This document shows positions 666-4,523 of a DNA stretch of 64,000 nt, in pieces. A model generated the notes under the pieces. That model was given only the letters and a program-made list of their open reading frames with translations, made no database searches and had not been told where the DNA came from. Made by a program: the position numbers and the translations under genes. Every line of letters begins with the position of its first letter. The first letter of the stretch is position 1. Source of the stretch: Escherichia coli (GTDB lineage: Bacteria > Pseudomonadota > Gammaproteobacteria > Enterobacterales > Enterobacteriaceae); assembly GCF_003018235.1 (NCBI RefSeq), contig NZ_CP027437.1. One strand, given 5' to 3'.

Positions 666-1859
666 ATGCCAGTACAGATTTCAGGTGTGCTGAAGGATGG
701 TACAGGAAAACCGGTACCGGAGTGCACCATAGAGCTGAAAGCCGTGAGAACCAGTGAGACGGTGGTGGTCACCACGGTGGCGGAGTGTCAGCCGGGGGAA
801 ACAGGCAGTTACAGCATGCAGGTTGAGCCGGGGCGTTATCGTGTGACCCTGTGCGTGGAAGGTCGCCAGCCAGCATATGCCGGAGAGATTGATGTCATGG
901 CAGACGACAAACCGGGTACCCTGAATGCCTTTCTGCTCCGTGAAACGGATGCTGCGTATTACCCTGATGCACTGAAGAAACTGGAAGCGGCGGCGGATGA
1001 GGCTGTGCGCAGGGCGCGGGAAGCTGCTGAGAAAGCGGAAACTGCCGTGGGGCCACAGGGGCCAAAGGGAGATAAAGGCGAGAAGGGGGAGCAGGGGCCA
1101 AAGGGTGATAAGGGAGACACCGGTGCACAGGGGCCGAAGGGAGAAACCGGCGCTAAGGGTGACAAAGGTGATACAGGCCCCGCAGGTCCGAAAGGTGAGC
1201 GGGGCGACCCTGGCGGCCCACAGGGGCCAAAAGGGGATACGGGAGCCGCAGGTCCGGCAGGCCCACAGGGGCCGAAAGGGGATACCGGAGCCACAGGCCC
1301 GGCAGGCCCACAGGGACCAAAAGGAGATACCGGAGCCGCAGGTCCGGCAGGCCCACAGGGACCGAAAGGAGATACAGGAGCCACCGGTCCGGCAGGCCCA
1401 CAGGGACCGAAAGGAGATACGGGGGCCGCAGGCCCGGCAGGCCCACCGGGACCGAAAGGAGATACCGGAGCCACTGGTCCGGCAGGCCCACTGGGACCGA
1501 AAGGGGATACGGGAGCCACCGGTCCGGCAGGTCCGCAGGGGCCGAAAGGCGATACCGGAGCCACCGGTCCGGCAGGTCCGCAGGGTCCGGCGGGAAGTTC
1601 TGACAGCGGGTTGTTTGGCGTCGGTTCTTTTGTTCTTGCAGCGTATTACCCGACGAGTTACTCGGGGGACATGCCACCGGGCACAACTGTTGCCGGGTCA
1701 TCACTGTCTGCATGCTGCCTTTCGAATGGTACTCCCCTGATTGCGTCCGGTAATGTGGGGGAAACCCGTTTACCGGGGACGTGGCGTGCATGTGGTCCGT
1801 TAATATGGACATCTGCTGCGGGTATCAGACAGGCAGGATTATTTCAGCGCATATCATGA
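666..1859 (+). CDS. stf: Phage side tail fiber protein: lambda Stf-like N-terminal domain, central collagen-like Gly-X-Y region, short C-terminal domain
   Basis: N-terminus [17 protein letters not shown]... resembles lambda Stf; long [11 protein letters not shown] Gly-X-Y repeats; GGGGG Shine-Dalgarno before the ATG. Confidence 0.8.
1215..1583 (+). repeat. Tandem 45-bp (15-aa, [11 protein letters not shown][A/T]GPA) collagen-like repeats, 8 full units plus a partial unit, inside the tail fiber gene; the wider Gly-X-Y region spans about 1053..1595
   Basis: Direct reading of in-frame repeat units with synonymous and A/T variation between copies. Confidence 0.85.
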
Positions 1860-1869
1860 GGAGGTCAGG

Positions 1870-2475
1870 GTGGATAAGGGAAAAGAGATTCTTGCAGTAC
1901 GAAATGCCGGTTACAACGAATACGGCGGTATAAACTGTGAGGTGCAGTTTGAAGGCGCGGTGAATGAAAAAGGTGAAGCGTTATGGCTGCCATATACGGC
2001 AACGGAAACGGATAATACTGAACACGGAAAAGCATTATGGTCTGGTCTGACAGCAGGAAAGTACGGAGATGTGACCGCCTTTGCTGCCACGGAAGCTGTT
2101 CTTGAGGCGGCAAAATCGGTGAAAAGGGAGGAGATTAATCTCTGGCGGGACGTGCAGGAAAATATGGAATACGTGATGGAATTCAACGGAAGAAAATGGG
2201 ATTACGGCAAGAAGACATTGTCCAGGATAAGCACGACGCGCCTGATGGCGGAAAAAAACAGTCTTCCGGAAGGATTTGCGTGGACGGATGGTGAAAATAA
2301 TGTGGTGCCGGTGACGGCGGCGGAAGTTATCGCGCTGTCGGATGCGATAGAGAAGGCGATGTTTGCGAAGGGGGTGGAGATTAACACCAGACAGTTGCAG
2401 ATGAAAGCAGAGGTTGAGGCGCTGACAGAGCTGAAGTCCATCAGAAGTTATGTTGTTGGCTGGCCTGCCAGTTGA
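1870..2475 (+). CDS. Prophage protein in the tail fiber assembly (tfa) position, function unassigned; GTG start
   Basis: 201-aa ORF immediately after stf with a GAGGAGG Shine-Dalgarno; lambda gene order; no confident similarity to lambda Tfa from memory. Confidence 0.45.
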   Translation: MDKGKEILAVRNAGYNEYGGINCEVQFEGAVNEKGEALWLPYTATETDNTEHGKALWSGLTAGKYGDVTAFAATEAVLEAAKSVKREEINLWRDVQENMEYVMEFNGRKWDYGKKTLSRISTTRLMAEKNSLPEGFAWTDGENNVVPVTAAEVIALSDAIEKAMFAKGVEINTRQLQMKAEVEALTELKSIRSYVVGWPAS

Positions 2476-3135
2476 ATAAAAAAAGCGGGGCCACCCCCGG
2501 GCCCCGACATAACGAAGTATCAGATGTTTATAATTATTAGCTTACTAACTGTGCCATATCAGAATACTGCAGGAAGTGATGTTGTTATCATTTTTGCAAG
2601 CAGGGCGTTTCTGGAGGGAATCGATTGGTGATGGAGTGTGCAATGATGAAGGGAATAAGCCTCTGCAAAACAAAAAAAGACTTTAACAAAATCAAGCTCG
2701 CTTAGTGGCGCATCTGCCCGTATCCGCACCAGTCGTCCGGAAAATGATTCAAACACCGGGCGGCAAAAGTATTACCAGTGTAGCAACCTGGAATGCGGCG
2801 TATGCTTCTCAACTCTGGCAGCTTTCCATAAATTCACATCGAAACACGCTTCCGGCGTTCACTCTTCAGAAGGTATCCCGTGGCATGAACTGCCAGCTTC
2901 ACACTGGTGAAACAATCAGATGACTTTTCCTTTACCTCAAATTAACAGGCAGAATTGCCGGAGTAACAAAAAAACGATAGATTACGCGCGGGTGCCTTTC
3001 GGCTGATGGTCGGAGGGAATACCCGAAGGCCAGATGTGGAAAGGCCCCGGAAAACACTTTTGTTTAACCGAGGCCCTAACCGTCTACCCTAAGCAAGTGA
3101 TAGGTTAGCGCCTCCCCGAAAAAGGAGCAAGCGCT

Positions 3136-3276
3136 ATGTCGCAAAAATCGCTGATCGCCATCACGCTCTGCGTGACAGCAACCCTCATCATCTGGATATT
3201 GCACGGTTCGCTGTGTGAGATACGGATGAGTTTCTGGGGAGCGGAGTTTGCGGCGTTCTTACAGTGTAAGCAGTAA
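3136..3276 (+). CDS. Hok/Gef-family type I toxin-like small membrane protein (46 aa: MSQKSLIAITLCVTATLIIWILHGSLCEIRMSFWGAEFAAFLQCKQ)
   Basis: Not in the ORF track (under 60 aa). N-terminal transmembrane helix followed by the Hok signature SLCEIR ... E.AAF, closest in my memory to HokA and Hok of plasmid R1; AAAGGAG Shine-Dalgarno 7 nt upstream. Confidence 0.6.
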   Translation: MSQKSLIAITLCVTATLIIWILHGSLCEIRMSFWGAEFAAFLQCKQ

Positions 3277-3417
3277 GGAGACCGCGACGGGGGAGTAATC
3301 CCCCGTCAATCGGTTGTCAGGGTAAGGTCGAAGTGGCACCCAAATTTAAATAGAGGCCCACCAGTAAGAGTAAGAGCGGTGGGCTTAGCACTTGTTTAAA
3401 TTTGAAAGGAATTCTTT

Positions 3418-3714
3418 ATGAGTGAAATGGTATTTTGTCGCGGCTGCGGCAAGGAAATACATAAAAATGCCATATCTTGCCCCAATTGTGGAGCACCTCA
3501 AAGAACAGCAAGTTCAAAAAGCAGGATTACAGCTGCACTACTGGCTTTCTTTTTTGGTGGTCTCGGTGCACACAAATTTTATTTAGGTAAAGTGGGACAA
3601 GGATTTCTTTATCTTATTTTTTGCTGGACATTCATTCCGGCAATCGTGGCTTTTATTGAGTTTATTATCTATCTATGCACCTCAGATGAAGATTTCGCCC
3701 GCAAATATGGCTGA
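3418..3714 (+). CDS. Small membrane protein with an N-terminal zinc ribbon (CxxC-N11-CxxC) and a TM2 domain (GGLGAHKFYLGK motif)
   Basis: 98-aa ORF with AAGGA Shine-Dalgarno; motif reading only. Confidence 0.6.
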   Translation: MSEMVFCRGCGKEIHKNAISCPNCGAPQRTASSKSRITAALLAFFFGGLGAHKFYLGKVGQGFLYLIFCWTFIPAIVAFIEFIIYLCTSDEDFARKYG

Positions 3715-3739
3715 CATCTAGCGGACGAATCAGAATGAC

Positions 3740-3770
3740 AAACCCGCAACCCGCAGCGTAAAAACTGCGG
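3740..3770 (+). terminator. Rho-independent terminator after the TM2-domain gene
   Basis: CCCGCAG / CTGCGGG stem followed by TTTTCTTTT. Confidence 0.7.
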
Positions 3771-3960
3771 GTTTTCTTTTGCTACCCATCACGAATGAGG
3801 GCACCATAAAGAAAGCCCACAGCATAGTGGTTGCGGGCTTTTTACATTCAAAGATGGACGTTTTATGGACATTGAAAGTTTAAATCCTTTAACTTTCAAC
3901 TGGTTGATGCTAATTTTAACGCACCCGAAGGCGCGTTGGCGATACACTCAATATAAAGGA

Positions 3961-4356
<396 letters not shown>

Positions 4357-4523
4357 TCAAAATGTGTGATGGAAATCTCATAATTTTGTCACTTTTTGTC
4401 AACGAATCTTTTTTGTGAGAAATCGCAGGAAGAGGTGTTTTTTTACTTGAGGAATATCTCAAAGCGAGCCATATTTGATGAGATCGATAGTGACTAAATC
4501 GCTTCAGTTTCACAACTAACAGA

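What the first reader, a model, noticed from the sequence alone, without database searches (positions are those of the whole stretch)
2476..3135. 660-bp apparently non-coding gap between the tfa-position gene and the hok-like gene
The only ORFs here (2559..2756 -, 2705..2923 +) lack ribosome-binding sites and recognisable motifs. The stretch begins with a GC-rich hairpin (CGGGGCC ... GGCCCCG, about 2493..2513) preceded by an A-run, which would act as a minus-strand terminator. It could hold a regulatory RNA, a degraded gene, or a recombination junction.
Basis: seen in the sequence. Interest (0 to 1): 0.3.

Follow-up and report, generated by a model that had tools for sequence, protein, structure and literature searches.

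The report
Prophage recombination scar plus hok/sok leader
The 660-bp "empty" stretch is an ordinary prophage mosaic: the tail end of a lambda-like tail-fibre module joined to a broken P2-type ogr regulator gene, followed by the promoter, leader and antisense-RNA region of an intact hok toxin gene.

Summary
The gap is real (DUF4376 gene ends at 2475, hok starts at 3136), but it is not featureless. It has three parts of known kinds.

1. **2476-2697: lambdoid DNA.**
   - It starts with a minus-strand intrinsic terminator: hairpin 2486-2506 plus a T7 run. The hairpin is conserved with compensatory changes behind DUF4376 genes of other lambdoid prophages.
   - A conserved non-coding trailer follows.
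   - It ends with about 70 bp homologous to the attP arm of ompW-integrating phages, cut off about 95 bp short of the att core.
2. **2699-2945: a dead P2-type ogr/Delta zinc-finger gene.**
   - It has lost its start codon, ribosome-binding site and Cys4.
   - Cys7 is changed to Ser, there is a premature TGA at 2908-2910, and there is a 1-bp deletion near the old 3' end.
   - RefSeq calls 2722-2910 a 62-aa CDS with an ATC start.
3. **2955-3135: the hok promoter and mRNA leader, with a predicted antisense Sok gene.**

The breakpoint lies at 2698 ±1. The same junction occurs in 2 of 5426 complete E. coli genomes. The exact truncated-ogr protein called across it occurs on 71 public contigs.

This is ordinary phage mosaicism and of low interest. 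The one loose end is the conserved trailer, which might encode a small minus-strand RNA.

The parts
1870..2475 (+). DUF4376 gene in the tail-fibre-assembly position. It is the last gene of the lambdoid late/tail module and forms the left border of the gap.
   Evidence: ORF of 201 aa. PF14301 at 55.7 bits. RefSeq protein WP_106906726.1.
2478..2506 (-). Intrinsic terminator for leftward (minus-strand) transcription. Stem CGGGGCC/GGCCCCG at 2486-2506, followed on the minus strand by T7 (2484-2478).
   Evidence: Terminator scan. Fold of -17.1 kcal/mol. Conserved with compensatory pairs in 8 lambdoid prophages. Within the junction lineage, locus L024 carries the alternative allele with paired changes 2490 G>A and 2502 C>T.
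2507..2605 (.). Conserved non-coding trailer of the lambdoid tail-fibre module. It contains a small palindrome, TTAG(2537-2540)/CTAA(2545-2548), and a near-invariant block at 2573-2597. A promoter-like site lies on the minus strand: -35 ATGGCA 2557-2552, -10 AATTAT 2535-2530.
   Evidence: 70-80% identical downstream of DUF4376 genes in prophages at ompW, ssrA, tRNA-Ser, prfC and yecD. The promoter-like site sits at the same alignment column in 7 of 8 prophages. No Rfam, Pfam or PHROG match.
2625..2697 (.). Remnant of the P arm of an ompW-type lambdoid attP, truncated about 95 bp before the att core.
   Evidence: 81% identical to PPompW prophages, where the match ends 96 bp before the annotated insertion duplication. 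98% identical over 45 bp to P-EibA. The same segment is found in ECO2947 and ES5 next to the ompW 3' fragment. In PPompW, intE and xisE are on the minus strand next to the core.
2697..2699 (.). Breakpoint between lambdoid-derived and P2-like-derived DNA. No microhomology is recognisable.
   Evidence: Three-way alignments. The identical junction is present in SCU-111 and in all 8 sampled contigs.
2699..2945 (+). ogr/Delta zinc-finger pseudogene. It lacks the ATG, the ribosome-binding site and Cys4. Cys7 is changed to Ser (TGT>AGT at 2704-2706). Gly75 is changed to a stop (TGA 2908-2910). There is a 1-bp deletion before the former TAA (2943-2945).
   Evidence: Alignment to the intact 86-aa gene of RM10740 and CRE1540. 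PF04606 at 34.4 bits over profile positions 6-45 only. No ATG, GTG or TTG in this frame. RefSeq calls 2722-2910 with an ATC start.
2955..2983 (+). Predicted hok promoter: -35 TTGCCG (2955-2960), 17-nt spacer, -10 TAGATT (2978-2983).
   Evidence: Read from the sequence. It is below the scan threshold at 8 of 12 matches. Both hexamers and their spacing are conserved in the Stx2-phage copy while the upstream flank is unrelated.
2990..3392 (+). hok mRNA. The leader is 2990-3135 and the CDS is 3136-3276. The 5' tac element (2990-3004) pairs with the fbi element (3326-3341). A 3' hairpin lies at 3353-3386.
   Evidence: The Rfam sok/hok-leader model matches 2990-3149 at 45.7 bits, E = 1.9e-8, against a gathering score of 59. 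MFE is -173.6 kcal/mol with z = -5.98 and the 5' and 3' ends paired. Homology with the Stx2-phage copy stops at the fbi element. No variable site at 2946-3135 among 9 loci.
3038..3130 (-). Predicted sok antisense gene. Promoter: -35 TTGCTC (3130-3125), 17-nt spacer, -10 TAACCT (3107-3102). The RNA runs from about 3095 to about 3038, with a stem-loop at 3077-3041.
   Evidence: Minus-strand sequence. Fold of -24.5 kcal/mol, z = -2.0. Hexamers and the 17-nt spacing are conserved in all 7 aligned loci although the spacer sequence differs in the Stx2-phage copy. The transcript has not been shown experimentally.
3136..3276 (+). hok toxin gene of 46 aa, HokA-like. It forms the right border of the gap. 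Its Shine-Dalgarno sequence AAGGAG (3122-3127) lies inside the gap.
   Evidence: PF01848 at 27.8 bits against a cut-off of 22. PHROG 251 at 75 bits. NCBIfam HokA at 29 bits, below its cut-off.

Best explanation
The interval is a composite left by illegitimate recombination between two unrelated temperate-phage genomes. It is followed by the normal regulatory region of a hok/sok-type toxin-antitoxin cassette.

**Left part (2476-2697).** This is the natural 3' end of a lambdoid tail-fibre module.
- It has a conserved terminator that stops leftward (minus-strand) transcription before it runs antisense into the tail-fibre genes. That transcription would come from the att/int side or from cargo genes. 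The terminator sits in the same position as tI in phage lambda.
- A conserved trailer follows.
- It ends with the outer part of an ompW-type attP arm.

**Junction and ogr remnant.** At 2698 this DNA is fused to codon 5/6 of the ogr late-gene activator of a P2-like (P88/Xuanwuvirus-type) prophage. The ogr remnant cannot make a zinc finger and has no translation start, so it is a pseudogene.

**Right part.** From 2955 the intact hok cassette begins.
- A promoter drives a roughly 400-nt mRNA whose 5' end pairs with its 3' fbi element.
- The hok Shine-Dalgarno sequence is sequestered in a local hairpin.
- A roughly 57-nt antisense Sok RNA is made from a promoter that overlaps the hok ribosome-binding site.

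**Shown:** the homologies, the breakpoint, the gene lesions, the hairpin covariation and the in-silico folds.

**Inferred:** that the terminator terminates, that Sok is transcribed and represses hok, and the order of events that produced the junction.
For: **Identity and context**
- The window is E. coli O158:H23 CFIAFB20140388 at 100% identity.
- Window 2699-3135 matches about 1250 genomes at 90-96%. In those genomes an intact 261-nt ogr sits between the P2 gpD-type tail gene and hok.

**Left part**
- Window 2440-2697 matches DNA downstream of DUF4376 genes and next to the ompW att site in lambdoid prophages.
- The hairpin shows covariation.
- Minus-strand cargo genes (YkgJ family, DinI-like) run into this trailer in O104:H4 and SHP24.
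- int and xis are oriented towards the core in PPompW.

**Breakpoint and ogr lesions**
- The breakpoint is mapped.
- The ogr lesions are listed.
- Pfam matches only profile positions 6-45.

**hok anatomy:**

**Prophage backbone**
- The whole prophage between raiA and pheL has a P2-type int/C/cox/replication endonuclease at one end, lambdoid Q-lysis-head-tail genes in the middle, and 'ogr-hok-TM2 at the other end.

**Distribution**
- The junction is inherited unchanged. It is in 2 complete genomes, and the exact truncated-ogr protein is on 71 contigs. All 8 sampled contigs show DUF4376, then 246 bp, then 'ogr-hok-TM2-raiA.
Against: - No transcript data are available. The hok promoter scores only 8 of 12 and was not picked up by the scan.
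- The Rfam sok hit is below the gathering score.
- No canonical mok frame overlaps hok, so the classical mok-coupled control may not apply.
- The Sok hairpin is followed by only three U residues, so its 3' end is uncertain.
- A related prophage with a 92%-identical int (strain ES5) has no ogr-hok-TM2 at its raiA end. It is therefore unresolved whether the P2-like right end belonged to the same phage or to an older resident prophage.
- RefSeq treats 2722-2910 as a CDS.
Confidence: 0.85

Rival explanations
1. The RefSeq-annotated 62-aa ogr/Delta-like CDS (2722-2910) is a functional small protein, so the interval is partly coding.
For: - PGAP calls it.
- The Pfam Ogr_Delta match is above the gathering score.
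- The exact sequence is kept on 71 contigs.
Against: - The call needs an ATC start with no Shine-Dalgarno sequence upstream. There is no ATG, GTG or TTG in this frame.
- Two of the four zinc ligands are gone: Cys4 is deleted and Cys7 is Ser.
- There is a premature stop and a 1-bp deletion relative to the intact 86-aa gene.
- 5 of the 6 variable sites found at 2607-3135 among 9 loci fall in this remnant, and none in the hok leader.
- The 71 contigs are explained by clonal inheritance of the same junction.
Confidence: 0.04
2. The junction is a chromosomal deletion scar rather than the crossover of a viable hybrid phage. On this view, a phage with lambdoid late genes integrated beside an older P2-like prophage remnant at the raiA-pheL site, and a later deletion removed everything between the lambdoid attP arm and ogr codon 5.
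For: - The ES5 relative, with the same int type, ends DUF4376-lom-IS200-raiA with no ogr-hok-TM2.
- The prophage is already decayed: J, tail-assembly protein T, RecE and other genes are pseudogenes.
- The lambdoid piece retains part of a foreign, ompW-type att arm.
Against: - No second att core or int remnant was seen between 2476 and 3850.
- The two ends of the prophage (int/C/cox and 'ogr-hok) are both P2-type, as expected if a single P2-like genome had its late region replaced.
- The data cannot order the events.
Confidence: 0.35
3. The conserved trailer (2478 to about 2560, minus strand) is a small-RNA gene. A weak promoter (-35 ATGGCA, -10 AATTAT/TATGAT) would drive a roughly 45-55-nt RNA ending at the conserved terminator.
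For: - The terminator shows covariation.
- A promoter-like site sits at the same alignment column in 7 of 8 prophages.
- Sequence blocks are conserved across prophages with different integration sites and cargo.
Against: - The promoter matches are weak (8-9 of 12) in AT-rich DNA, and one relative lacks the site.
- There is no Rfam family here.
- The folding z-score is about 0.
- The block is equally well explained as the 3' UTR and terminator of leftward cargo or int transcripts.
Confidence: 0.15
4. The hairpin is a lambda sib-type retroregulator. It would be an RNase III site formed only in read-through transcripts, controlling int expression, rather than a plain terminator.
For: - It has the same relative position and orientation as lambda tI/sib: leftward of attP, on the strand of int. 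This comparison rests on textbook knowledge of lambda.
- A 7-bp GUUAUGU/ACAUAAC pairing flanks the hairpin in the window.
Against: - The extended fold is no better than shuffles, with z = 0.08.
- The flanking pairing is not conserved in the relatives.
- In this genome the cognate lambdoid int is absent.
Confidence: 0.1

Closest known systems
Ogr/Delta late-gene activators of P2-like phages (Pfam PF04606), specifically the 86-aa ogr of P88/Xuanwuvirus-type prophages (WP_000488107.1)
   Same: - 96% DNA identity from codon 6 onward.
- The same downstream neighbours: hok, cargo genes, then attR.
   Different: - 5' truncated, with no start codon or ribosome-binding site.
- The first Cys pair is lost.
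- There is a premature stop and a 1-bp deletion.
- The upstream neighbour is a lambdoid DUF4376 gene instead of P2 gpD.
hok/sok type I toxin-antitoxin loci: plasmid R1 hok/sok, chromosomal hokA, and Rfam RF01794
   Same: - A Hok/Gef peptide.
- A long, structured mRNA with 5'-3' (tac-fbi) pairing.
- An antisense promoter and stem-loop in the leader.
- The cassette behaves as a mobile moron. It is also found in Stx2 phages with identical borders.
   Different: - No canonical mok frame overlaps hok.
- hok has its own strong Shine-Dalgarno sequence.
- The Rfam score is below gathering, and the NCBIfam HokA score is below its cut-off.
- It is not the experimentally studied hokW-sokW of Sp5. That locus encodes a different, 51-aa Hok and has a different leader (PMC8621323, primer sequences).
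Phage lambda tI terminator / sib region and the attP P arm
   Same: - A leftward-strand terminator between the tail-fibre end of the genome and attP.
- In relatives, int and xis are transcribed towards it across the core.
   Different: - No evidence for an RNase III-sensitive extended stem.
- About 330 bp from the core in ECO2947-type prophages.
- In this genome the att core and the lambdoid int are missing, so it is an orphan.
Mosaic (hybrid) temperate phages generated by illegitimate recombination at module boundaries
   Same: - A sharp switch of homology within 1-2 bp and no microhomology.
- Each side is 75-96% identical to a different phage family.
   Different: The breakpoint lies inside a gene (ogr) and inside an att arm rather than at a gene boundary.

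Membership tests
Ogr/Delta zinc-finger family (PF04606) | Sequence match to the family profile above the curated cut-off | tested here: met
   34.4 bits against a cut-off of 26.3, but only profile positions 6-45 of 47 are matched. NCBIfam PRK09678 scores 25 bits against a cut-off of 116.
Ogr/Delta zinc-finger family (PF04606) | Four cysteine zinc ligands (Cys-X2-Cys ... Cys-X4-Cys) | tested here: not met
   The intact relative has C4, C7, C32 and C37. The window copy lacks C4 because it lies beyond the breakpoint, and has Ser in place of C7. Only the second pair remains.
Ogr/Delta zinc-finger family (PF04606) | Complete ORF with a start codon and ribosome-binding site | tested here: not met
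   No ATG, GTG or TTG in frame from 2659 to 2910. The RefSeq call uses ATC at 2722 with no Shine-Dalgarno sequence. A TGA replaces codon 75 of 86.
hok/sok type I toxin-antitoxin | Hok/Gef family toxin peptide | tested here: met
   PF01848 at 27.8 bits against a cut-off of 22. PHROG 251 at 75 bits.
hok/sok type I toxin-antitoxin | Long-range pairing of the mRNA 5' end (tac) with a 3' fbi element | tested here: met
   In the MFE structure, 2990-3004 pairs with 3326-3341, with z = -5.98. Changes on the 3' side among 7 loci keep the pairs through G-C/G-U and U-G/U-A swaps. This is in silico only.
hok/sok type I toxin-antitoxin | Antisense Sok RNA gene in the leader | tested here: inconclusive
   A conserved -35/17-nt/-10 arrangement and a stem-loop lie on the minus strand. 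Rfam RF01794 scores 45.7 bits against a gathering score of 59, and the hit is on the hok-sense strand. No transcript data.
hok/sok type I toxin-antitoxin | Overlapping mok reading frame that couples translation to hok | tested here: not met
   No ORF with a canonical start overlaps hok. The leader ORFs end before hok. The ATG at 3034-3036, which opens the leader ORF ending at the TAG at 3106-3108, is followed by a shifted frame in the Stx2-phage copy.
hok/sok type I toxin-antitoxin | Toxicity of Hok and its neutralisation by Sok | not testable with these tools
   Needs expression experiments.
Rho-independent (intrinsic) terminator | G+C-rich hairpin immediately followed by a U-run on the transcribed strand | tested here: met
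   On the minus strand there are 7 G-C pairs, a 7-nt loop and T7. On the + strand no T-run follows the hairpin.
Rho-independent (intrinsic) terminator | Structure conserved through compensatory change in homologues | tested here: met
   Two pairs of the helix change on both sides. 98.4% of cells pair, against 27-43% when partners are slid.
Lambda sib/tI retroregulator | Lies beyond attP on the strand of int | tested here: met
   In ompW-type prophages the order is DUF4376, hairpin, arm, core. intE and xisE are on the minus strand at the other end of the prophage.
Lambda sib/tI retroregulator | Extended double-stranded stem (RNase III site) in read-through RNA | tested here: not met
   The fold of 2440-2580 on the minus strand has z = 0.08. 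The consensus fold of 8 homologues shows only the short hairpin.

The most novel reading that the evidence does not exclude
The roughly 130-bp trailer conserved behind DUF4376 tail-fibre-assembly-position genes of many lambdoid prophages (window 2478 to about 2605) may be a previously undescribed prophage small-RNA gene or 3'-UTR-derived sRNA on the minus strand. It would end at the covarying terminator and have a conserved single-stranded 5' segment (CUGAUAC). In this genome it would survive as an orphan next to the junction.
Probability: 0.15. Interest if true: 0.4.

Novelty: already known. Interest (0 to 1): 0.15.

Why it matters
This matters mainly as a clean-up. A large "empty" intergenic region is fully accounted for by ordinary phage mosaicism.

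Three points are useful for annotation:
- The RefSeq 62-aa ogr/Delta CDS with an ATC start (WP_097749596.1), called on 71 contigs, should be treated as a pseudogene.
- The hok cassette's promoter, leader and antisense gene occupy about 190 bp that annotation leaves blank.
- The junction is a lineage marker for a prophage at the raiA-pheL site that combines P2-type integration, immunity and replication genes with lambdoid late genes.

The conserved tail-fibre trailer with its terminator is the only element whose function is not yet assigned.

Tried and rejected
- **Rfam on the left part.** A permissive scan of 2400-3000 gave only chance hits to eukaryotic and viral families. No known sRNA family (STnc100, AgvB, AsxR, Esr41 and others) appeared among hits with E <= 1 in 1800-4400.
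- **Small ORFs.** Pfam, NCBIfam and PHROGs searches of both long ORFs found nothing, and PHROGs found nothing for five short ORFs in the lambdoid part (2524-2705). Coding explanations for 2476-2698 are rejected.
- **A sib-like extended RNase III stem around the hairpin.** The fold is no better than shuffles and is not conserved.
- **A mok frame.** None with a canonical start overlaps hok.
- **Orthology with hokW-sokW of Sp5.** The 'MokW-like' PHROG name suggested it. The published primers show that hokW encodes MKQQKAM... with a different leader, so orthology is rejected. The 84%-identical copy in Stx2 phages is a second, different hok locus.
- **Literature search for P2-like + hok + ogr.** Nothing relevant was found. 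The Pas-sRNA preprint does not cover this locus.
- **An intact P2-like prophage at raiA-pheL as the ancestral state.** None was found. The 82 other genomes with ogr-hok-TM2 appear to carry it elsewhere: their matches stop at window 3808, short of the raiA side, and the one I looked at sits at the flk site.
- **Microhomology at the breakpoint.** None beyond a possible single base.

Full report
**Observation**

The window is the reverse complement of E. coli O158:H23 strain CFIAFB20140388, at 100% identity. The gap is bounded by a DUF4376 gene (1870-2475, the tail-fibre-assembly position of a lambdoid late operon) and a 46-aa hok gene (3136-3276).

The hairpin is at 2486-2506 (CGGGGCC / 7-nt loop / GGCCCCG), preceded on the + strand by A7. 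It therefore reads as a hairpin plus T7 terminator on the minus strand. A single such site is not more than chance in this region, so its reality rests on comparison with relatives.

**Right two-thirds: a P2-type ogr remnant and the hok leader**

Megablast of the gap against 5426 complete E. coli genomes found the whole interval in only two genomes. Positions 2699-3135 were found in about 1250 genomes at 90-96% identity.

In those genomes, and in Peduoviridae phages such as P88 and Chuche, the matching DNA is the right end of a P2-like genome. The order is tail gene D, then ogr (261 nt, 86 aa), a 190-nt spacer, hok, cargo genes, and then att/int.

Alignment shows that window homology starts at CGCTT (2699), inside codon 5/6 of ogr. 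The remnant has these lesions:
- It has lost its promoter, ribosome-binding site, ATG and Cys4.
- TGT is changed to AGT, converting Cys7 to Ser.
- Codon 75 is TGA (2908-2910).
- There is a 1-bp deletion just before the former stop (2943-2945).

The frame still matches Pfam Ogr_Delta, but only from profile position 6. It has no ATG, GTG or TTG start. RefSeq's 62-aa CDS (2722-2910) begins at ATC with no Shine-Dalgarno sequence. With two of four zinc ligands missing, I read it as a pseudogene.

**The hok regulatory region (2955-3135)**

- **Cassette borders.** An 84%-identical copy of the cassette in Stx2 phages shares homology from the -35 hexamer (TTGCCG 2955-2960; 17-nt spacer; TAGATT 2978-2983) to the sequence GGCACCC (3335-3341). 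The flanks are unrelated. This delimits a mobile cassette.
- **Leader homology.** The Rfam sok/hok-leader model aligns from 2990 to 3149 at 45.7 bits and E = 1.9e-8, below the gathering score of 59.
- **mRNA fold.** RNA 2990-3392 folds with its first 15 nt paired to 3326-3341, the tac-fbi arrangement of hok mRNAs. The energy is -173.6 kcal/mol, z = -5.98. In that fold the hok Shine-Dalgarno sequence (3122-3127) is paired.
- **Predicted Sok.** On the minus strand, TTGCTC (3130-3125), a 17-nt spacer and TAACCT (3107-3102) are conserved in all seven aligned loci, although the spacer sequence varies. A stem-loop follows at 3077-3041. This predicts a Sok RNA of roughly 57 nt.
- **Departures from the classical model.** No canonical mok frame overlaps hok.
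- **Not hokW.** The locus is not hokW-sokW of Sp5, whose published primers show a different gene (PMC8621323).
- **Variation.** Among nine loci that share the junction, the leader has no variable site, the ogr remnant has five and the hok CDS has four.

**Left third: the end of a lambdoid tail-fibre module**

A sensitive search showed that 2440 to about 2605 is 70-80% identical to DNA following DUF4376 genes in lambdoid prophages integrated at ompW, ssrA, a tRNA-Ser gene, prfC and yecD.

The hairpin is kept with compensatory changes (C-G to U-A, and A-U to G-C). In the alignment 96.6% of cells pair, against 27-43% when partners are slid. None of 500 shuffles reaches the covariation score. The A-run is invariant.

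In O104:H4 and SHP24, minus-strand cargo genes (YkgJ family, DinI-like) run into this trailer. One member of the junction lineage (L024) carries a different trailer allele with paired hairpin changes but the same junction. The trailer therefore travels with the tail-fibre module.

Positions 2625-2697 match a segment that lies about 95 bp before the annotated insertion duplication (att core) in PPompW prophages, P-EibA, ECO2947 and ES5. In PPompW, intE and xisE are on the minus strand beside the core. In the circular phage, int transcription would therefore cross attP and this arm and reach the hairpin. That is the position of tI in lambda (textbook knowledge). I found no support for a sib-like extended RNase III stem. 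No small ORF or Rfam family accounts for this part.

**The junction and its setting**

Lambdoid homology ends at ...AACAAAATCAAGC (2697) and P2-like homology starts at 2699, with no clear microhomology.

The prophage between raiA and pheL has three sections:
- a P2-type integrase, C-like repressor, Cox and replication endonuclease at the pheL end;
- lambdoid Q, lysis, head and tail genes in the middle, several of them pseudogenes;
- 'ogr-hok-TM2 at the raiA end.

A relative with a 92%-identical int (ES5) has the same early/late combination but no ogr-hok-TM2. Whether the right end belonged to the same phage or to an older resident prophage cannot be decided.

The exact truncated-ogr protein is on 71 public contigs. 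All eight sampled loci show DUF4376, then 246 bp, then 'ogr-hok-TM2-raiA. The scar is therefore stably inherited in a lineage.

**Verdict**

All three of its suggested interpretations apply. Each component belongs to a well-known kind, and the two genes are already named in RefSeq. Interest is low.

The residual open point is the function of the conserved trailer. The possibilities are a leftward terminator and 3' UTR (favoured) or a small minus-strand RNA. The latter has a promoter-like site at the same column in 7 of 8 relatives, and I put its probability at about 0.15.

Noticed in passing
window 666-1859 (+): The tail-fibre gene carries a long run of collagen-like Gly-X-Y repeats, made of tandem units of about 45 bp encoding [11 protein letters not shown](A/T)GPA. 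Its length varies between otherwise near-identical loci (382, 397 and 400 aa).
   Followed up: no
window 3418-3714 (+): A cargo gene for a 98-aa zinc-ribbon plus TM2-domain membrane protein sits between hok and the prophage end. The same ogr-hok-TM2 module occurs at about 92% identity in 82 other genomes; in the one examined (ETEC1706) it belongs to a P2-like prophage at the flk site.
   Followed up: partly
window 2955-3341; L010 about 1490-1860: The hok cassette, from the -35 hexamer to the fbi element, is shared at 84% identity between P2-like prophages and Stx2-converting phages, with unrelated flanks. In the Stx2 phages a + strand terminator precedes it. It behaves as a self-contained moron and is distinct from hokW-sokW of Sp5.
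   Followed up: partly
window 2507-2605 (minus strand); A5 column 81: The conserved non-coding trailer has a small covarying palindrome (TTAG/CTAA), a near-invariant 25-nt block (2573-2597), and a promoter-like site at the same alignment column in 7 of 8 lambdoid prophages. It could be a small minus-strand RNA gene.
   Followed up: partly
L007 (NZ_CP076709.1 2965500-3015000), mostly outside the window: The prophage between raiA and pheL combines a P2-type int/C/cox/replication endonuclease with lambdoid DUF968-Q, lysis, head and tail genes. The same backbone is in strain ES5. J, tail-assembly protein T, RecE and other genes are pseudogenes.
   Followed up: partly
L004 and L019/L020 (E. coli ES5): IS66 copies sit beside lom (next to the ompW prophage end) and beside a truncated J (in the pheL prophage). 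This suggests an IS66-mediated rearrangement between two lambdoid prophages about 1.4 Mb apart.
   Followed up: no
window 3809-3848: P2-like homology ends at 3808 and chromosomal (raiA-side) homology begins at 3849. The attR core of the P2-type integrase probably lies in this 40-bp stretch. The weak Rfam hits nearby (mir-1788 at 3760-3827, MicC at 3657-3788) are terminator-like hairpins, not real family members.
   Followed up: partly
L024 (GCA_018253955.1), equivalent to window 2485-2580: One assembly with the same ogr junction carries a different allele of the hairpin and trailer, with about 30 differences and paired stem changes. This indicates homologous exchange of the tail-fibre module after the junction formed.
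   Followed up: partly
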